DNA of 42,848 bases from positions 1 through 42,848 of the IMG/VR virus record IMGVR_UViG_2563366985_000002; one strand, given 5' to 3'. The DNA is from a virus (lineage: Duplodnaviria > Heunggongvirae > Uroviricota > Caudoviricetes). Made by a program: the position numbers and the translations under genes. Positions 10,754-17,549 of this stretch are shown piece by piece; positions within the stretch are counted from its first letter, which is position 1, and each line of letters opens with the position of its first letter. Below the pieces are notes generated by a model that did not search any database, was not told where the DNA came from, and saw only the letters and a program-made list of their open reading frames with translations.

Positions 10754-11515
10754 ATGGAGACTGTTTTTGACGCACTGAAAGCAATGGGAAAAGCCACATC
10801 CATAGAACTTGCTGCGCGACTTGATATCAGTCGTGAAGAAGTGCTGAACGAACTATGGGAACTGAAAAAGGCTGGTTTTGTTGATAAAAGCGCGTACACC
10901 TGGCGTGTGGCTGATAACAATGTTCAGCAGGAACAGCCAGCGCAGGCAGAACTGCCGGAAGAAATCACCACAGCAACAGTAGCGAAAATCTCAGAGTGCG
11001 ATTTAACCGCGACGATTGAACAACGAGGACCACAAACGGCTGATGAGCTGGCTACATTGTTTGGTACCACATCACGCAAAGTGGCTTCAACGCTGGCAAT
11101 GGCAATCAGCAAAGGTCGTCTGATTCGCGTAAATCAGGGCGGTAAATTTCGTTACTGCATACCGGGCGATAATTTACCAGCAGAGCCGAAAGCAGCATCG
11201 GTAGCGGAAACTGATGGTAAGGCCTTTCCTCAGACCGCAGGTGTTGCGTTACCAGTACAGGAGGCTGCAACACAGGAAGATATTAAAACAGAAACTGTGG
11301 CGGACATTGTGCAGTCGCTGCCATCGTTTACTGAAACGCGAGCGGATGACCTGGTTTTACCATCACTGCATATGGCAAACCGCGAACTGCGTCGGGCGAA
11401 AAATCATGTCCAGAAGTGGGAGCGTGTCTGCGCCGCGCTGCGTGAGTTGAACAAGCACAGGGATATTGTACGACAGATTACTGATTCTTCCCGCCATGTT
11501 GCATCGGAAAAGTGA
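10754..11515 (+). CDS. ydaW: YdaW-like protein, apparently intact
   Basis: ORF starting [13 protein letters not shown]... with GGAGAAA Shine-Dalgarno; follows ydaV; full-length here. Confidence 0.6.
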
Positions 11516-11530
11516 TTGCCGGAGGCACCT

Positions 11531-11908
11531 ATGGCAAAAGTATTTACACCAGAAGAGCGAGAAAAAATTAAAGGACAGGTTGTTGAACTTGTACCTCTGA
11601 GCGGTCGCGAGACGTTACGGGCTCTGGAGGCTAAAACCGGTGCATCAAGGTATTACATAAGCACTCTCGCCAGAGAACTAGTCGCCAGTGGTGATGTTTA
11701 CAATTCAGGCTACGGATTATTCCCGTCTGAGCAGGCGCGTAAAGACTGGCAAAACGCCCGCAAAAAACTATCAAGGACAAAGGTGAAGAAACCGGTTGTG
11801 GTTGATCCTGACCTTATCTGGTCATTACCAGACGGAGAAATACGCCGTTACGACAGGCGTCTGAACATAATCTGTCGCGAGTGCCTGAAGAGTGAAGTTA
11901 TGCAGTGA
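11531..11908 (+). CDS. Hypothetical nin-region protein
   Basis: ORF with GGAGG Shine-Dalgarno 5 nt before the ATG (MAKVFTPEEREKIKGQ...); no family recognised by eye. Confidence 0.45.
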   Translation: MAKVFTPEEREKIKGQVVELVPLSGRETLRALEAKTGASRYYISTLARELVASGDVYNSGYGLFPSEQARKDWQNARKKLSRTKVKKPVVVDPDLIWSLPDGEIRRYDRRLNIICRECLKSEVMQ

Positions 11909-12198
11909 ATATTGGCATTTTATCAGTGAATCATGCTGCATTTATAGGTATTTTTAGTTTAAATAGCATTGGTTCATATGTAAATTGACATTTTTATGGT
12001 ACAGGGTAGAACTAGTGTGGTTGCCTGCTTTGTGCCAGCTGCGGACATTACTTAAACAAATGCTGTATTATTTTATCGGTAAAGGTGGTAAAGAGTGGCC
12101 CTGAAGTGTCAAGATAATTATTAGCAGTATATATCATGCAAGAACCCATTTAATTTAGGCATGAAATTAATTTTAAAAAAGTAGAGGATTCCAATTAT

Positions 12199-13881
12199 AT
12201 GGCCAAACAGTTTATGTTAATGGAACCAAAAAATGAGAACTTCAATGAATTAATTGGAGGGTCAAATAAGTACATTGTTCCTAGATTCCAGCGAGACTAT
12301 GCTTGGGATGTAGAACAATGGGAGGACCTTTGGAGTGATGTTACAGCACTTGATGATGAAGGTTTTCATTATATGGGATATATAGTTCTTCAACAAAAAG
12401 AACAGTATCAACATGAGGTCATTGACGGTCAACAACGATTAGTAACCTTGTCGATTATAGTTCTAGCAGCCATGAAAGCCATTAAAAACTTGATAGATAA
12501 AGGAGAGGAGGTTGAACAAAACACAGAGCGACTTGATGCAATAACAAAGACATTTGTGGGTAACAAAAACTTCGTTTCATTAAAGGTGGTTAGCAAGCTA
12601 GATTTAAATAGAAATAATAAAAGATATTTTCAAAGCATCTGTTCAAACTTAGAAGCTCCTAATACTCGTGGAACTACATCTACAAATAAGCTACTCAAGA
12701 AATGCTTTGATTTTTTCCAAAAGAAGGAGTTCGGTAATACCGGCGCTGAGATCGCACAGTTTATTGCCGATTTTTCTTCGAGTATGGTTTTTACAAAAAT
12801 AGTTGTTCAAGATGATTTAAATGCATACAAAGTATTTGAAACTTTAAATGCGAGAGGAGTCCAGTTATCCACGCCAGATCTCTTAAAAAACTATTTGTTT
12901 TCGATAGTAACTAAGGATGAGAAAATCGGAGATGAGGAATTAGATGAGTTAGATGAGCAATGGTCGGAGATTATCGATCAGTTGGGAGAAAGCAATGTTT
13001 CTGATTACATTAGGTATCATCATAATTCTCATAGAAAAATGGTCACAAAAAATAATTTATACACTTCAATGAGAAAAGTAATTACAACCCCTAAAGAAGC
13101 ATACGATTATTTAAGATCACTGATAAATTCCGCACCTATTTATGCATCATTGATTAACCCGAATGATTCATGGTGGGCAGAGCAAGATACTAAATACAAG
13201 AAGGCCATTCATTATCTGAACGGCATTAGACTCTTTAATATTAGACAGCCATTAACAGTATTGCTATCAGCTTTTAATCAATTCAATCCAGATGAGTTCG
13301 TCAGCCTGACTCGTTATTTATATATTTTATCAATTAGATACAATGTTATTTGTCATTTATCACCAAGTGAACAAGAAAGCATGTATAATCAAATTGCGAT
13401 TAAGATCTCCAATAAGGAATACAAGAGAGCTAGCAATGTGAAAAATGGGGAGGAGTTTAAGAGGTTATATCCTGATGATAACGTGTTCTTTAATGCTTTT
13501 GAATTTCATCGAATGCCAAGTAGACAAACAGCCAAAAAAATTAGATTTCTCTTGGCTGAAATTGAACAATATCTTGGTAATAATTGCGATCATGAAAAAG
13601 TTACACTCGAACATATTTGTCCATTTAACCCAGAGAAGGGGTGGTGCAATTCGTTTGGGGAGGGGGTTAATGACGTAAAGGATAGGTTAGGAAATATGGT
13701 TTTGATGGATAAAGATAATCTAAAAAGAGCTTCATTTGAAGTGAAGAAAAATGAATATGGAAAATCAAAGTATAAATTAGCGGCTAAGATTACACAGTAT
13801 CCTGAATGGAATTTAGAGGCTGTCAATGATTTTCAAAAATGGATGTCGGAACAAGCAGTAAATGTATGGAAAGTTGGTTAA
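12199..13881 (+). CDS. DUF262/DUF1524 two-domain nuclease, GmrSD-family-like (putative type IV restriction / anti-phage defence)
   Basis: 560 aa; N-terminal DUF262 signature (FQRDYAW ... VIDGQQRLVT); C-terminal His-Me finger-like DUF1524 region (EKVTLEHICPF...N); gene markedly AT-rich relative to flanking prophage DNA. Confidence 0.75.
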   Translation: MAKQFMLMEPKNENFNELIGGSNKYIVPRFQRDYAWDVEQWEDLWSDVTALDDEGFHYMGYIVLQQKEQYQHEVIDGQQRLVTLSIIVLAAMKAIKNLIDKGEEVEQNTERLDAITKTFVGNKNFVSLKVVSKLDLNRNNKRYFQSICSNLEAPNTRGTTSTNKLLKKCFDFFQKKEFGNTGAEIAQFIADFSSSMVFTKIVVQDDLNAYKVFETLNARGVQLSTPDLLKNYLFSIVTKDEKIGDEELDELDEQWSEIIDQLGESNVSDYIRYHHNSHRKMVTKNNLYTSMRKVITTPKEAYDYLRSLINSAPIYASLINPNDSWWAEQDTKYKKAIHYLNGIRLFNIRQPLTVLLSAFNQFNPDEFVSLTRYLYILSIRYNVICHLSPSEQESMYNQIAIKISNKEYKRASNVKNGEEFKRLYPDDNVFFNAFEFHRMPSRQTAKKIRFLLAEIEQYLGNNCDHEKVTLEHICPFNPEKGWCNSFGEGVNDVKDRLGNMVLMDKDNLKRASFEVKKNEYGKSKYKLAAKITQYPEWNLEAVNDFQKWMSEQAVNVWKVG

Positions 13882-14003
13882 TCTATCAATAAAACATAGG
13901 CGTAAGTGGGATGTTTTACTGACAGTTTGATGAGTCATGGATATCCTGCTAGGCCTACAACATGTCTTCAATTATATCATTACGAGATAGGCTCGATATT
14001 AAC

Positions 14004-14029
14004 AAGTCCGCTCCTCGCTCAAAGCGGAC
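14004..14029 (+). repeat. 26-bp repeat copy 1 (AAGTCCGCTCCTCGCTCAAAGCGGAC), contains GTCCGC/GCGGAC hairpin
   Basis: Matches 15529-15554 at 22 of 26 positions; lies 3' of the DUF262/DUF1524 gene. Confidence 0.6.
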
Positions 14030-14408
14030 CTTTCTTTTGCATCTACCTTTTACTTTTCCCCTTTCTTCCGTATCTACTTTTCCCATGTATACGATTAATC
14101 CACCCAGATACGACTTTAGCATTTTTCAGCTCTGCCGAGAAGAAAAAGGCGTGATTGTCAAAATTTAACGAAAACAAGCAGATTGTTGCGGATGGCGATT
14201 TTTTGTTTTCTTGGATGAAAAATGTGCATATTTTTGCTAAAAGTGGTTAAATATGTCTAACGGCGAATTAGCGACGAAGCGATACTCAGATTTTCAACCA
14301 GAACGTTCGTCTGGCCTTAGATAGAATGGACATTTTTGGATCCACTTTGTCCACGGAGGGCCATATAAGTGCCAACGTTTTAAAAAAGCTACTCAGGAGT
14401 ATTTATAA

Positions 14409-15458
14409 ATGGGATTTATTTCACAACTATTCAATTTGCTTACCTCCAGGATAACTTCTGCAAAAACAATGACGCCTTCAAGTTTGCATGAGTTAACAGC
14501 TAACATAACTCCTAAACTCAAGAAACAAAACGGAAATATATCAATCGAAAACGATTGGCTTACTATTGATTCTCCTTATTTTTTTGGACAAGCGTATCTG
14601 TCTGCAAACAAACATTGGGTTGTAGGCTGTAGTGACTTTGATGGCAATGGAAGGGGAGGGCACCGGGAAAGTGGATTTGGAACAGTTGTTTTAGTTAATA
14701 AACCAACTTTTCGTATCCTTCATAAGCTCAGAACTATTGCCCGACCATTTAATGCTGCTGTCGCTGACACAGGTGATTATATTGTTCATGACGCTGGATT
14801 TGGTTCTGCGCTGCAAGCTGATTTGATTGCTATTGATGTTGAAGGAAATGAAAAGTTTAGACGTCATTATGAAGCAAATATCTATAATATCGGAATTTCT
14901 CATTGTGGTAAATACGCATCGGTTCAGACAGCCGCAGCGCCCGGTAAAGATGGAAATATCCTTGAGGTAATAAATCTGTGGTCAAAAACAACAATATTTT
15001 CCATTAAACCTGAGTATGGATGGGCTGATAGTTATTTCTTCGATCTCGATGAAAATGGGGGGCTAAGATCGCTGAAAGTGAAATGCAAAAATATTGGATA
15101 CTTCAGATACACTGCCATCGGTATTCCCATTGACGTGGAAGCGTATAAAGATGCTTGTCTATATAAAGGAAATTTCAACCTTAAAGTAGAGGCCGCGAGA
15201 GCGCTTTTAAGAGAACATCCCAGTGAGAAGAATGCTCAAAAAGCATTGAAAGCAATTGAAATGGCTCTTAATGAAGGAGCGAAAGACCGAACTGACTGGG
15301 CTGCAGCCGCATTTCGCATCAAAGGTGAAGCAAATGATTTACTTGGTAACTTTAGTGATGCTCTTGATGCCTATGAAAAAGCTTTGAGCTTTAATCCAAA
15401 AATAGGGGTTCAGAGACGAGTTAATGCTCTGCGTAAAAAATTACAGAGATTAAAATAA
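14409..15458 (+). CDS. Hypothetical protein, beta-rich N-domain with C-terminal TPR-like repeat
   Basis: 349-aa ORF with AGGAG Shine-Dalgarno; C-terminus AAAAFRIKGEANDLLGNFSDALDAYEKALSFNPK fits a TPR repeat; no catalytic motif recognised. Confidence 0.6.
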   Translation: MGFISQLFNLLTSRITSAKTMTPSSLHELTANITPKLKKQNGNISIENDWLTIDSPYFFGQAYLSANKHWVVGCSDFDGNGRGGHRESGFGTVVLVNKPTFRILHKLRTIARPFNAAVADTGDYIVHDAGFGSALQADLIAIDVEGNEKFRRHYEANIYNIGISHCGKYASVQTAAAPGKDGNILEVINLWSKTTIFSIKPEYGWADSYFFDLDENGGLRSLKVKCKNIGYFRYTAIGIPIDVEAYKDACLYKGNFNLKVEAARALLREHPSEKNAQKALKAIEMALNEGAKDRTDWAAAAFRIKGEANDLLGNFSDALDAYEKALSFNPKIGVQRRVNALRKKLQRLK

Positions 15459-15528
15459 AACCAGCAAGTATCACGATAGAGAAATTTTTTCGGAACTACC
15501 TGTAGTGATTATGTTTCTATATACACCA

Positions 15529-15554
15529 AAGTTAGCTCCTCGTTCAAAGCAGAC
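15529..15554 (+). repeat. 26-bp repeat copy 2 (AAGTTAGCTCCTCGTTCAAAGCAGAC)
   Basis: Matches 14004-14029 at 22 of 26 positions; lies 3' of the 349-aa gene. Confidence 0.6.
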
Positions 15555-16032
15555 TAGATGTTGGCTTCCGTCGGACTTGGCGTATTTAAAGAAGTGCTGG
15601 TAGTGACTGGTTGTTGTATTCCATTTCTACAGAACAAAATCACAGAAACTATACCCAATAGTTGTATTGAATCACTGACGAGACAGCCTCATATTTATCA
15701 GGGCAGGTGCACGTCCAATACAGGAGGTTGTCGTGCTGGTTCTCAAGTGTGCGTTGGCTATTGCGGCTGTGGTGGCAATTTATTGTCTTGCTATTGTTCT
15801 TATGGATCGCCTTTCTGATTGATTTCATATTGGCGAAGTAAAGGGGGTTAAATAGTATGGCTGCGGGGGCTTGAGGCTATCTGCCTTGGGCATGAAAACC
15901 AAAGGCAGATAGAAAAAGTCCCAGTTGATATTACGCATCCGGCAAGAGGCTTAACATTAATCTGGGGCCCAATCTATGCCTTACAAACGTAGGTTAGTCT
16001 CTTACGTGCTGAAAGGCAAGAAGAAGCGGGCT

Positions 16033-16188
16033 ATGAAGCAGCAAAAGGCGATGTTAATCACCCTGATCGTCATCTGTTTAACCGTTATAGTGACGGTACT
16101 GGTAACGAGGAAAGACCTCTGCGAGGTACGAATCCGAACCGACCAGACGGAGGTCGCTGTCTTCACAGCTTACGAACTTGGGGAGTAA
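16033..16188 (+). CDS. hok: Hok/Gef-family type I toxin (membrane peptide)
   Basis: 51-aa product MKQQKAMLITLIVICLTVIVTVLVTRKDLCEVRIRTDQTEVAVFTAYELGE, closely resembling HokD/RelF; the six-frame ORF carries a 19-codon in-frame upstream extension. Confidence 0.8.
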   Translation: MKQQKAMLITLIVICLTVIVTVLVTRKDLCEVRIRTDQTEVAVFTAYELGE

Positions 16189-16200
16189 GAGGACCAGCGG

Positions 16201-16210
16201 GGAGAAATCC
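16201..16210 (+). repeat. IS186 target-site duplication, left copy (GGAGAAATCC)
   Basis: Identical 10-mer abuts both IS186 termini. Confidence 0.75.
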
Positions 16211-17549
16211 CATAAGCGCTAACTTAAGGGTTGAACCATCTGAAGAATGCGACGCCTCGGTGCCTCGTTAAGACGATGCCTCGCGTTCTTCAATTGCGTT
16301 TTGTAGGCTGTCAGGGATACTGTCCCACGAATGGCCACCTGTAAGCTCCAGATGACCATTTTTGTTATTCTCCACAACGAGTTAGTTCTTCTTTTCGGAT
16401 CCGGCACTTCTGGGGGGGAAATCCAGCGATGGCTGGATTATGTCGTCAATTAAAAATGCGGCGAGTAGATTAGCAAATATCCACGCTTTCGCGAGTTCAG
16501 GTTCCTTTGCACGCAAAGCATCCAGGTGCAGCAAACTTTTGAGCCGCTTAAAAGCCAGTTCAATTTGCCATCGCAGACGGTAACAATCAGCCACTTGCTC
16601 TGCTGAATATTCATCTTCCGGTAATGATGTTAGCAATAGCACATGGCCCGCTGCTTCCAGCGTTTCCGCCTGAACTACTCGTCCTTTTCGACGATTCTCG
16701 CTGAGCAGTCGGGTTTTACTGATTAATGCTTTTTCGGGAGGAAGTGATACGGCAATGAGACGTGCCGGAAAGGGAGCTCCGGCTTTTTTATTACCTGAAT
16801 TGCCTATCATTACAGTGGTTTCACCGTTCTTACCGCAATCCAGCCCGCGCAGAAAACCCATCATGTCAAAGCGCATTCCTTCTGCAGTTAACCAGCGCAA
16901 TCCTCGCCAGTGAACCCGGACGATATAATCAGCTTCTCCAAAAGCAAGTGAGCGGATACATTCGGGACGCGAACCGAATCCCCGGTCAGCAATGCGTATC
17001 TCGTCTGCCGTTTGCGCAAATCGGTCCAGCCGTTCAGCGTCTCTGCTGTCGGTTAGCTCAAAATCAGTGAACTGACAGGTATGAGGATCATATCCCATAT
17101 GTAGTCGCCATTCAGCGCTGCCGCCCCCGGGCGCACTGATTGCTGTTCCATCGACAAGACGCAATCTCTTTCCGCTTGTACAACCCGTAACTGCGGCGCG
17201 TACAGCAAGTGTTTGTGCGGCAAGTATGCCAAACCAGTCGGCGGCATTCCGCAGCCGCTTCAGGAGAGCCACGTCAGATAATGTTGCAACGTCATGGAGC
17301 TGAGCCCATGCAGTGACTTCACGTAATGACATCCCCCCGGGGCCGTAAGCCAGCCCCAGACGTAGCAGAGTTGCAGCATCACGAATTTCGCGGCGGCGGG
17401 TTAGAGCCCCGGCATTACGTGCCGAAGTATCCAGTTCTTCGGGCTTACCAATATGGGCCAGAATTGCTGACCAGTTATCGTGAGAGTAATTCATCGGCAC
17501 GTTAAATCATATCAGGCGTAATACCACAACCCTTAAGTTAGCGCTTATG
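16211..17549 (-). mobile_element. IS186 (IS4 family), complete copy
   Basis: 23-bp perfect terminal inverted repeats CATAAGCGCTAACTTAAGGGTTG at 16211-16233 and reverse-complemented at 17527-17549; encloses the transposase ORF; flanked by a 10-bp direct repeat. Confidence 0.85.
16382..17500 (-). CDS. insL: IS186 transposase
   Basis: 372-aa ORF (start possibly 2 codons in, at MNYSHDNW) recognised as IS186 InsL transposase. Confidence 0.9.
   Translation of the reverse strand: MPMNYSHDNWSAILAHIGKPEELDTSARNAGALTRRREIRDAATLLRLGLAYGPGGMSLREVTAWAQLHDVATLSDVALLKRLRNAADWFGILAAQTLAVRAAVTGCTSGKRLRLVDGTAISAPGGGSAEWRLHMGYDPHTCQFTDFELTDSRDAERLDRFAQTADEIRIADRGFGSRPECIRSLAFGEADYIVRVHWRGLRWLTAEGMRFDMMGFLRGLDCGKNGETTVMIGNSGNKKAGAPFPARLIAVSLPPEKALISKTRLLSENRRKGRVVQAETLEAAGHVLLLTSLPEDEYSAEQVADCYRLRWQIELAFKRLKSLLHLDALRAKEPELAKAWIFANLLAAFLIDDIIQPSLDFPPRSAGSEKKN

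What the first reader, a model, noticed from the sequence alone, without database searches (positions are those of the whole stretch)
14004..15554. Imperfect 26-bp direct repeats follow both cargo genes
AAGTCCGCTCCTCGCTCAAAGCGGAC (14004-14029) and AAGTTAGCTCCTCGTTCAAAGCAGAC (15529-15554) are identical at 22 of 26 positions and each lies shortly 3' of one cargo gene. The first copy contains a perfect 6-bp inverted repeat (GTCCGC...GCGGAC). They may be cassette-boundary or recombination sites, or diverged copies of a shared 3' terminator.
Basis: seen in the sequence. Interest (0 to 1): 0.45.

Follow-up and report, generated by a model that had tools for sequence, protein, structure and literature searches.

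The report
Cassette-boundary recombination sites in a prophage
The two repeats are copies of a 24-bp palindromic site that marks the ends of swappable cargo (mostly anti-phage defence) gene cassettes in lambdoid and P2-like prophages, genomic islands and plasmids; the site was noted in P2 phages in 2004, but how it works is still unknown.

Summary
14004-14029 and 15529-15554 match at 22 of 26 positions and no shuffle gives such a pair. A third, inverted and degenerate copy lies at 12023-12046.

They are not private to this prophage. They are copies of a 24-bp palindromic site, GTCCGC-N12-GCGGAC, in two forms that differ in the central 6 bp: L (TGGCAC) and R (TCGCTC). Its core is the inner end of the 'left/right inverted repeats' annotated around the P2 Z/fun locus (Nilsson et al. 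2004).

In Rac-like prophages an inverted L and an R site bracket a cargo hotspot between lygF (DUF977) and hok/sok. About 1,300-1,480 of 5,426 E. coli genomes carry these flanks. A sample of about 170 phage contigs holds 57 cargo classes.

Identical cassettes (99.4-99.8%) sit in both P2-like and Rac-like phages. Identity runs from the first base of L to the last base of R. Outer-arm bases follow the backbone and inner-arm bases follow the cassette, so crossovers fall inside the site.

In this window copy 1 ends a GmrSD (HEC-06) segment. Copy 2 ends a TPR-gene cassette that occurs alone elsewhere.

The enzyme is unknown. This is a new member of a known kind, of moderate-to-high interest.

The parts
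11516..11908 (+). lygF (DUF977) gene, the last conserved backbone gene to the left of the hotspot. The backbone continues to 12022.
   Evidence: Pfam DUF977 E=1e-21. Annotated as LygF/DUF977 in matching E. coli and phage records. Used as the anchor for related loci.
12023..12046 (-). Left boundary site: an L-type 24-bp site in inverted orientation, degenerate here (GCCTGCTTTGTGCCAGCTGCGGAC on the + strand).
   Evidence: Found with 7 mismatches to the reverse complement of copy 1. It sits at the same position (lygF end + 115) as the intact L sites of Tritos, mEp460_ev081, L128 and L207. It no longer folds as the hairpin.
12199..13881 (+). Cargo gene 1: a GmrSD-family (DUF262/DUF1524) type IV restriction-like nuclease.
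   Evidence: Pfam GmrSD_N 1.7e-37 and GmrSD_C 1.9e-17. PADLOC HEC-06 E=4e-221.
14006..14029 (+). Copy 1 of the finding: an intact R-type site, GTCCGCTCCTCGCTCAAAGCGGAC, at the right end of the GmrSD segment.
   Evidence: It matches the R site of phage P2 before gene FI at 23 of 24 positions. It folds as a 7-bp stem with a 10-nt loop, -10.5 kcal/mol. The exact 24-mer recurs in other E. coli genomes and species.
14030..14352 (+). Spacer segment between the cassettes. Its first ~220 nt are 81% identical to the DNA next to an R site in a Citrobacter amalonaticus integrase island. It holds two 22-nt direct repeats (14029-14050 and 14060-14081).
   Evidence: It is absent from the phage collection and from other E. 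coli contexts.
14353..15530 (+). TPR-gene cassette body: a 56-nt leader, the 349-aa TPR protein gene (14409-15458) and its 3' untranslated stretch.
   Evidence: Homologous to stand-alone TPR cassettes in L332 and L331 from 14353 onward (score 62 against a shuffle maximum of 28). Pfam TPR_1 match below the cut-off, and no PADLOC hit.
15531..15554 (+). Copy 2 of the finding: a diverged R-type site, GTTAGCTCCTCGTTCAAAGCAGAC. It is the right end of the TPR cassette and the right boundary of the hotspot.
   Evidence: Homology to phages Evi and Tritos starts at window ~15535. Homology to TPR cassettes from other contexts stops at its last base. It does not fold as the hairpin.
15555..16188 (+). Right backbone: a conserved spacer, then the hok/sok type I toxin-antitoxin locus.
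   Evidence: Rfam sok 92.4 bits, E=1.5e-20, at 15865-16038. Hok/Gef annotation in matching records. Used as the right-backbone anchor.

Best explanation
The repeats are copies of a 24-bp palindromic boundary site with 9-bp arms (GTCCGCTNN / NNAGCGGAC) around a 6-bp centre. The site comes in two forms: L (centre TGGCAC) and R (centre TCGCTC).

In Rac-like lambdoid prophages an inverted L site and an R site bracket a cargo hotspot between lygF and hok/sok. The same pair brackets the Z/fun hotspot of P2-like phages and cargo in integrase islands.

Shown: cargo segments are exchanged as units bounded by these sites, within and between unrelated backbones, and the crossover falls inside the site.

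Inferred, and the mechanism I commit to: the sites are substrates of a conservative site-specific recombination reaction. It would be tyrosine-recombinase-like, with exchange at or in the central 6 bp, carried out by an enzyme not encoded next to the sites. Because L and R differ in the centre and face each other, L x L plus R x R exchange swaps a cassette without excising it, as in engineered recombinase-mediated cassette exchange. A single L x L or R x R insertion builds tandem arrays.

In this window the hotspot holds two units. The first is a GmrSD (HEC-06) segment ending in R copy 1. The second is a TPR-gene cassette ending in R copy 2. The outer two sites have decayed, so this pair may now be fixed in place.
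For: 1. Family identity. Copy 1 matches the R site of phage P2 at 23 of 24 positions. The sites are the inner ends of the 'left/right inverted repeat' features of GenBank AJ512680 and AJ512681. PMC8987985 summarises Nilsson 2004 as saying that fun is flanked by inverted repeats enabling site-specific recombination.

2. Boundary role. In Tritos, mEp460_ev081, E308, L128, L207 and the window the DNA outside the sites is conserved and the DNA inside is unrelated. In about 1,300 E. coli genomes homology to Tritos stops 0-4 nt inside each site.

3. Cargo diversity. 24-30 cargo classes were found among 84 loci and 57 classes among 169 left-anchored loci.

4. Portability. One 1,466-nt cassette, sites included, is identical in three backbones about 20% diverged. 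The 1,941-nt cassette occurs alone and inside a three-cassette array, with identity running exactly from site to site. Cassettes of 1,008, 2,761, 2,219 and 1,606 nt are 99.4-99.8% identical between the P2 Z locus and the Rac lygF-hok locus, again exactly site to site.

5. Crossover inside the site. In site-unbiased samples the outer arm plus centre are at least 94-100% conserved per backbone, while the inner arm varies with the cargo. Position 8 of L is T in Rac (100%) and C in P2 (94%). Position 21 of R is G in Rac (100%) and A in P2 (95%). In shared cassettes these markers follow the backbone, while the inner arm follows the cassette.

6. Arrays. R-spacer-L doublets separate cassettes in phage and chromosomal arrays.

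7. The TPR gene is a stand-alone L...R cassette in L332.
Against: No recombinase is linked to the sites. The elements that carry them (P2-like, Rac-like, P4-type islands, ICEs, plasmids) share no obvious dedicated enzyme. ORFs near 120 sites in other genomes show no recurrent transposase or recombinase.

No empty site and no circular intermediate was found.

The site resembles neither Xer/dif nor integron attC consensus sequences (by reading).

The crossover mapping rests on one marker per site and on 1-4 independent shared cassette classes per end. Homologous recombination within 24 bp would give the same marker pattern.

In E. coli the two cargo genes of this window always occur together (31 genomes). 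The GmrSD gene is not site-flanked in most other contexts. The internal copy therefore has no demonstrated activity here.

The 2004 paper could not be read, so what it showed experimentally is known only second-hand.
Confidence: 0.55

Rival explanations
1. The sites are portable short homologies. Cassette exchange is done by general or phage-encoded homologous recombination (RecA, Rac RecET, lambda Red), or by replication template switching at the palindromes. The 24-bp sites act only as shared landing pads, and no dedicated enzyme exists.
For: No linked recombinase was found. Rac-like and lambdoid phages encode single-strand-annealing recombinases that work with short homologies (established knowledge of RecET and Red). 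Between P2 and Rac backbones the only shared sequence at the loci is the site itself. The marker positions lie near the outer edge, so a crossover anywhere in the remaining 16 nt gives the observed pattern. Some junctions fall at other places: L256 keeps only the inner 16 nt of an L site, and L188 and strain A20 keep only the outer part of R.
Against: This does not explain why the site is palindromic, why there are two forms with different centres always facing each other, or why the same 24 bp is kept in very different replicons and taxa. 24 bp is at or below the efficient limit for RecA and Red (established knowledge). P2 has no general recombinase of its own (from memory).
Confidence: 0.28
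2. The sites are REP-like intergenic hairpins or transcription terminators that punctuate transcription units. Cargo boundaries coincide with them only because genes end there. They play no part in recombination.
For: Copy 1 is a stable hairpin followed by a U-rich tail and lies 3' of its gene. In Erwinia mediterraneensis, Ewingella and Pseudescherichia, doublets sit between ordinary operons every 1-2 kb, as REP/BIME elements do. Some alphaproteobacterial MAGs hold many copies.
Against: Most copies have no T-run after the stem. In Tritos and mEp460 the R site lies upstream of a minus-strand cargo gene. Inner arms are often decayed, so no hairpin can form, yet the outer arm and centre are kept. 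Stem changes are not compensated. Identity of shared cassettes ends exactly at the sites in unrelated backbones, with the switch inside the site. A passive terminator does not predict this.
Confidence: 0.12
3. The match is a chance similarity in AT-rich intergenic DNA.
For: None beyond the short length.
Against: 0 of 100 and 0 of 20 shuffles give such a match. The same 24-mer recurs in 1,439 E. coli genomes and in more than 120 other genome stretches, where I calculate about 1 expected by chance.
Confidence: 0.01

Closest known systems
Inverted repeats flanking the Z/fun locus of P2-like coliphages (Nilsson, Karlsson & Haggard-Ljungquist 2004, Mol Biol Evol 21:1; GenBank AJ512680, AJ512681)
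   Same: The core sequence is the same: copy 1 matches the R site of P2 at 23 of 24 positions. The arrangement is the same, with an inverted L on the left and an R on the right of variable, mostly defence, cargo. Internal R sites sit between ORFs in P2-EC48, as in this window. Identical cassettes are shared between the two loci.
   Different: The backbone is a Rac-like lambdoid prophage (lygF-hok locus), not a P2 tail-gene junction. The P2 annotation spans 91-113 nt because the P2 backbone adds further inverted sequence (TCTGACA / TGTCAGA), which is absent here. The outer-arm bases differ by backbone (L position 8, R position 21). The two outer sites in this window are decayed.
Integron gene cassettes and attC sites (including integrase-less attC clusters, CALINs)
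   Same: Promoter-poor single-gene or few-gene cassettes, often defence genes, are separated by short imperfect palindromes. An R-spacer-L doublet of about 65 nt folds into one long hairpin with fixed mismatches. Tandem arrays occur, and there is no linked recombinase, as in CALINs.
   Different: The attC core boxes RYYYAAC / GTTRRRY are absent. The site sequence itself is conserved, whereas attC sites conserve structure rather than sequence. Each half is itself a palindrome. Cassettes are flanked by two different inverted sites rather than one attC. No IntI and no attI are present. This works like an integron in outline but is not a member.
pdif (Xer) modules of Acinetobacter plasmids, and engineered recombinase-mediated cassette exchange with heterospecific lox/FRT sites
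   Same: Modules are bounded by inverted arm-spacer-arm sites used by an enzyme encoded elsewhere. Two incompatible sites facing each other allow a swap without excision.
   Different: There is no similarity to XerC/XerD binding arms (by reading, against dif and cer recalled from memory). Arms are 9 bp rather than 11 bp. No enzyme has been identified. Nothing was tested experimentally.
REP/BIME and REPIN elements
   Same: They are short intergenic palindromes, occur as inverted doublets, lie 3' of transcription units, and reach many copies in some genomes.
   Different: The sequence is unlike E. coli REP and lacks the 5' GTAG/GTGG tetranucleotide of RAYT-associated REPs (from memory). The same sequence is shared across orders and classes, whereas REPs are usually species-specific. 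No RAYT was seen nearby. In E. coli the copy number is low (1-4 per genome) and the copies lie in mobile elements.

Membership tests
P2 Z/fun-locus inverted-repeat family (Nilsson 2004) | Sequence similarity to the annotated left and right inverted repeats | tested here: met
   The BLAST hit lies within the 'right inverted repeat' of AJ512680. Copy 1 matches the P2 R site at 23 of 24 positions. The window's left copy matches the L core of the left inverted repeat.
P2 Z/fun-locus inverted-repeat family (Nilsson 2004) | The two repeats face each other and bracket variable, non-essential cargo between conserved backbone genes | tested here: met
   Window: inverted L at 12023, R at 15531, with an internal R at 14006. 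The same layout occurs in at least 84 Rac-type and about 88 P2-type loci.
P2 Z/fun-locus inverted-repeat family (Nilsson 2004) | Homology between relatives breaks at the repeats, and the same cargo occurs elsewhere bounded by the repeats | tested here: met
P2 Z/fun-locus inverted-repeat family (Nilsson 2004) | The repeats are substrates of a site-specific recombinase | not testable with these tools
   This is only inferred, both here and, as far as I can tell from the secondary citation, in the literature. The crossover maps inside the site, but no enzyme is known.
Integron attC site | Conserved R'' (RYYYAAC) and R' (GTTRRRY) boxes at the two ends of the site | tested here: not met
   By reading the more than 120 sites and their flanks. 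The ends are GTCCGC/GCGGAC, and no GTTRRRY follows the doublets.
Integron attC site | An adjacent intI integrase with attI and Pc (or, for CALINs, at least two attC sites recognised by the attC model) | tested here: not met
   No integrase lies next to the hotspot in the window or in related loci. The attC covariance model itself was not run.
Intrinsic (Rho-independent) terminator | A GC-rich stem-loop immediately followed by a T-run | tested here: inconclusive
   Copy 1 has a 7-bp stem followed by CTTTCTTTTG, and the scan flags 14015-14027. Copy 2, the left copy and most family members have no T-run or no stem.
REP/REPIN elements | Species-specific high-copy palindromes associated with a RAYT transposase, with a conserved 5' GTAG-type tetranucleotide | tested here: not met
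   There are 1-4 copies per E. coli genome, in mobile elements. The sequence is shared across classes. No Y1 transposase was found among ORFs near 120 sites (clustering only, no HMM scan). The 5' end is GTCC.
Known RNA families (Rfam 15) | A match to a curated covariance model | tested here: not met
   Only sok matched in the window region. Nothing matched at the sites, and nothing matched in eight doublet-bearing loci.

The most novel reading that the evidence does not exclude
The 24-bp L and R sites are the substrates of a still unidentified recombination system that is host-encoded or widely shared. It would carry out natural recombinase-mediated cassette exchange, amounting to an integron-like gene-cassette economy without a linked integrase. 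Such a system would move defence and accessory genes between otherwise unrelated elements (P2-like phages, lambdoid phages, P4-type and leuX islands, ICEs, plasmids). The same 24-mer recurs in chromosomes of Enterobacterales, Alphaproteobacteria and Nitrosomonadaceae, so the system may be spread far beyond E. coli.
Probability: 0.3. Interest if true: 0.85.

Novelty: new member of a known kind. Interest (0 to 1): 0.62.

Why it matters
How phage and island defence hotspots are refilled is an open question. The main study of P2/P4 hotspots explicitly leaves the recombination pathway unexplained (PMC9122126).

These sites give that question a concrete handle. They are a defined 24-bp sequence at which cargo is swapped, shared by at least two unrelated phage families and several island types, with the crossover mapped to a few bases.

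The hypothesis is directly testable with marked cassettes, site mutants and recombination-deficient hosts. The sites also offer a simple sequence tag for finding cargo cassettes, and candidate defence genes such as the TPR protein here, in genomes. If an enzyme exists, it would be a natural cassette-exchange tool.

Tried and rejected
1. Chance match: rejected by shuffles.

2. Known RNA families: only sok matched, and nothing matched at the sites.

3. Exact-sequence literature searches for the site: 0 papers. Keyword searches found only the 2004 P2 work, through citations. The 2004 paper itself is not held.

4. tRNA fragment, att core, CRISPR repeat, sigma-54 promoter, Hin/Gin sites, Xer/dif and IS ends: considered by reading and from memory, with no convincing similarity. 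None was formally tested.

5. Associated transposase or recombinase: clustering of 1,243 ORFs around 120 sites gave only ordinary paralogous families (ABC substrate-binding proteins, cyclases, LysR, SDR). A small FimB-like recombinase appeared in 3 alphaproteobacterial loci. This was not pursued.

6. Empty site: none was found. The shortest E. coli case (strain A20) is a 230-nt remnant with a truncated R. Apparent 100-200-nt P2 sites were false anchors.

7. Idea that the GmrSD block was inserted into the leader of a TPR cassette: the right junction (14353) is significant, but the left-side similarity (12053-12076) is no better than shuffles. The idea stays unproven.

8. Idea that the 220 nt after copy 1 is P4 backbone: no match in the phage collection or elsewhere in E. 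coli.

9. Independent mobility of the two cargo genes within E. coli: not seen; they always occur together.

10. The association of R position 21 with backbone in the first two scans was circular, because the search patterns fixed that base. It was repeated with left-anchored patterns.
Full report
**1. The observation**

The window is a Rac-like lambdoid prophage of E. coli, with integrase at the left end, replication genes, a nin/Q region, lysis genes and morphogenesis genes. They agree at 22 of 26 positions and are the only such pair. No dinucleotide shuffle of the window matches either the exact or the degenerate pattern, and no shuffle of 11500-17000 yields any pair of 26-mers at 22/26 or better. 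Each copy lies 3' of a cargo ORF. The palindrome in copy 1 is 7 bp with a 10-nt loop (-10.5 kcal/mol, z -2.75). A third copy, inverted and more degenerate, lies at 12023-12046, directly after the backbone gene lygF (DUF977, 11516-11908).

**2. What lies around it**

The cargo is a GmrSD-type nuclease (12199-13881; Pfam GmrSD_N and GmrSD_C; PADLOC HEC-06, E=4e-221) and a 349-aa TPR protein (14409-15458; no PADLOC family). To the right come a conserved spacer, the hok/sok toxin-antitoxin locus (Rfam sok at 15865-16038) and an IS421 copy. Related phages share the DNA to the left of about 12050 and to the right of about 15535 but not the DNA in between.

**3. The repeats are boundary sites of a cargo hotspot**

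In phages Tritos and mEp460_ev081 and in the E. coli E308 prophage, the same motif flanks quite different cargo: an FRG-domain/PDC-S15 gene, or a LysR-GGCT-MFS trio. In every case an inverted copy (GTCCGCTTTGTGCCARNAGCGGAC on the + strand, here called L) follows the lygF backbone. A direct copy (GTCCGCTYYTCGCTCAAAGCGGAC, called R) precedes the hok backbone. The DNA outside is conserved and the DNA inside is unrelated.

With the Tritos locus as query, about 1,300 E. coli genomes match only the flanks. Homology ends 0-4 nt inside the inner edge of each site. 1,478 of 5,426 genomes carry the flanks. No empty site was found; the shortest locus is a 230-nt remnant.

A scan of viral contigs for the right boundary gave 84 loci with both sites and 24-30 cargo classes of 0.84-6.7 kb. 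Several are tandem arrays in which cassettes are separated by an R-spacer-L doublet, by a lone R or by a lone L.

**4. The site family was already annotated in P2**

A short BLAST of copy 1 against phage records hits P2-like phages. These include AJ512680 and AJ512681 (P2-EC46 and P2-EC48 'Z-region'), where the hit lies in a feature called 'right inverted repeat'. In P2 itself an inverted L site follows the tail-fibre assembly gene, and an R site (GTCCGCTCCTCGCTCAAAGCAGAC, 23 of 24 identical to copy 1) precedes gene FI. P2-EC48 has R sites between its three ORFs, like this window.

These records belong to Nilsson, Karlsson & Haggard-Ljungquist 2004, which I could not read. [quoted passage not shown] The main recent study of P2/P4 defence hotspots does not mention hairpins or repeats and leaves the exchange pathway open (PMC9122126). 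I found nothing on the lygF-hok locus as a hotspot or on these sites outside P2.

**5. Cassettes move between backbones, and the crossover is inside the site**

- A 1,466-nt cassette, sites included, is identical in three Rac-type backbones that are about 20% diverged. Divergence begins 6 nt to the left and 16 nt to the right of the sites.
- The 1,941-nt FRG cassette occurs alone and as the middle unit of a three-cassette array. Identity runs from the first base of L to the last base of R.
- A 3.7-kb module is joined through an internal L site to at least five different downstream cassettes.
- Cassettes of 1,008, 2,761, 2,219 and 1,606 nt, and the 3.7-kb module, are 99.4-99.8% identical between P2-type Z loci and Rac-type lygF-hok loci, again exactly site to site. 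The flanking backbones are unrelated.

To avoid circularity I re-sampled both loci using patterns in the left backbone only. This gave 72 Rac-type and 97 P2-type loci; about 9 of the P2-type loci are false anchors. In each backbone type the outer arm and centre of each site are nearly invariant, whereas the inner arm varies with the cargo. In Rac-type loci, L positions 1-15 are at least 97% conserved and R positions 10-24 at least 94%.

Two positions distinguish the backbones. L position 8 is T in Rac (100%) and C in P2 (94%). R position 21 is G in Rac (100%) and A in P2 (95%). In the cassettes found in both backbones these markers follow the backbone. The inner arm, and in one case an unusual R centre (TCACTC), follow the cassette.

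The switch therefore lies between L positions 8 and 16 and between R positions 15 and 21, inside the 24-bp site. The number of independent shared classes is small: one or two for L, and three or four for R.

**6. This window in detail**

The TPR gene is a cassette in its own right. In a phage-like contig (L332, 88% protein identity) it sits between an L and an R site, followed 10 nt later by the L site of the next cassette. In Pectobacterium (L331, 81%) degenerate L and R sites flank it. GmrSD is absent from both contigs.

Homology of the window to both contigs runs from 56 nt upstream of the TPR start (14353; score 62 against a shuffle maximum of 28) to the last base of copy 2. It then stops, and each sequence continues into its own context. 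Copy 2 shares its odd centre (TCGTTC) and GCAG arm with the Pectobacterium copy, so it probably arrived with the cassette.

Copy 1 ends the GmrSD segment. The 220 nt after it are 81% identical to the DNA beyond an R site in a Citrobacter amalonaticus island. That island reads P4-type integrase, L site, Old-like nuclease plus DpnII-like endonuclease, R site. Relatives of the GmrSD gene sit in ICE, plasmid and satellite contexts, and only one (Erwinia amylovora) has an R site downstream. Within E. coli the two genes always occur together, in 31 genomes.

My reading is as follows. The left L site and copy 2 have drifted from consensus and no longer fold, so this pair may be fixed in place. How the GmrSD segment was joined on its left side is not resolved.

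**7. Mechanism**

Shown: the sites are the junctions of cassette exchange. Not shown: the reaction that does it.

The architecture suggests a conservative site-specific recombinase. The features are 9-bp inverted arms around a 6-bp asymmetric centre, two forms that differ in the centre and always face each other across a cassette, doublets between tandem cassettes, and crossover inside the site. Two different inverted sites would allow a swap without loss, as in engineered cassette exchange. I put this at about 0.55.

The main rival (about 0.28) is recombination by RecA, RecET or Red, or template switching, using the 24 bp as portable homology. It explains the lack of any linked enzyme and predicts the same marker pattern. 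It does not explain the palindromy, the two forms or the conservation.

A purely passive terminator or REP role (about 0.12) fits copy 1 and the chromosomal arrays. It does not fit the absence of T-runs, the decayed inner arms with conserved outer halves, or the site-exact junctions.

**8. Wider distribution (not followed to the end)**

- The site occurs in 1,439 of 5,426 E. coli genomes, always intergenic. It also lies at the variable/conserved junction of leuX islands, including Sakai SpLE5.
- It occurs on 508 plasmids, mostly from Klebsiella and Pantoea.
These include many Enterobacterales, Xanthobacteraceae and other Alphaproteobacteria, and Nitrosomonadaceae.
- In enterics the L site is often followed 10-20 nt later by an inverted R site. 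This doublet folds as one long imperfect hairpin (-39 kcal/mol, z -4.35).
- In Erwinia mediterraneensis, Ewingella and Pseudescherichia such doublets separate ordinary operons such as arsHRBC and vapBC every 1-2 kb.
- Why the same 24 bp is kept across classes is unexplained.

**9. Verdict**

The element is a member of a family already noted in P2-like phages, found here in a lambdoid hotspot where I could find no prior description. The evidence assembled here is hairpin-exact sharing of cassettes between P2-like and lambdoid phages and a crossover inside a 9-6-9 site. This makes an old, untested proposal of site-specific recombination directly testable.

Noticed in passing
L008-L127 (genome-contig hits; e.g. 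L096, L087, L021): The same 24-mer (GTCCGCTTYTGGCACAAAGCGGAC) occurs in Alphaproteobacteria (Xanthobacteraceae, Pseudolabrys, Methyloceanibacter), in Nitrosomonadaceae and in a few MAGs of other phyla, often with many copies per MAG. In Alphaproteobacteria it is typically followed about 20 nt later by a second hairpin, GTCCGCTTTCGGGGGTAAAGCGGAC. Conservation of a 24-bp palindrome across classes is unexplained.
   Followed up: partly
L086 548-5911; L063; L062 51-4648; L079: Chromosomal arrays in Erwinia mediterraneensis, Ewingella americana, Pseudescherichia and Enterobacter have L-spacer-R doublets every 1-2 kb. The doublets separate small functional modules (ArsR/ACT/ABM, AraC+LysE, arsHRBC, vapBC). 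The layout looks like a cassette array or a REP-like punctuation system.
   Followed up: partly
window 14029-14250: Two 22-nt direct repeats (CCTTTCTTTTGCATCTACCTTT and CCTTTCTTCCGTATCTACTTTT, 31 nt apart) and an 8-bp stem-loop lie in a 220-nt segment directly after copy 1. The segment is 81% identical to DNA beyond an R site in Citrobacter amalonaticus (L035) and is partly conserved in Pseudescherichia (L062). Its function is unknown. It is absent from the phage collection and from other E. coli contexts.
   Followed up: partly
window 14409-15458; L331-L335: The 349-aa protein has an unannotated N-terminal part and one C-terminal TPR. It has no PADLOC family, yet it travels as its own site-bounded cassette in phage and island contexts. 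In Serratia fonticola it sits next to a 2,138-aa NACHT protein and an Mrr/OLD-like gene. It is a candidate defence gene.
   Followed up: partly
L035 579-5686 (Citrobacter amalonaticus): A P4-type integrase island carries, between an L and an R site, an Old-like AAA/TOPRIM nuclease and a DpnII/MboI-type endonuclease-domain protein. This is the same site pair in a third kind of mobile element.
   Followed up: partly
L004 4001-4024 (E. coli Sakai SpLE5), L005 (strain LAM_HS), L007: An R-type site lies exactly at the junction between conserved integrase-proximal DNA and variable cargo (HNH endonuclease, McrBC; type I R-M nearby) in leuX-associated and other islands.
   Followed up: partly
L059, L084, L117 (alphaproteobacterial MAG contigs): A small (~206 aa) FimB/FimE-like tyrosine recombinase recurs near the sites in three of about 70 alphaproteobacterial loci. 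This could be chance. It was not tested as a candidate enzyme.
   Followed up: no
window 16382-17500 (-): An IS4-family element (annotated IS421 in matching genomes) is inserted just to the right of hok/sok. Some otherwise identical prophages lack it, or carry IS1 insertions within the cargo (H13, H16, H24).
   Followed up: no
L211 1607-1884 (E. coli strain A20): This is the shortest occupant of the hotspot: an intact L site, about 230 nt of non-coding remnant, and an R site truncated to its outer 15 nt. No truly empty site was found among 5,426 E. coli genomes.
   Followed up: yes
L265 cargo vs L209/L364 (P2-EC48 type ORF1): A lygF-hok cassette gene is 70% identical over 930 nt to ORF1 of the P2-EC48 Z region. 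This indicates older sharing of cargo between the two hotspots, in addition to the near-identical cassettes.
   Followed up: no
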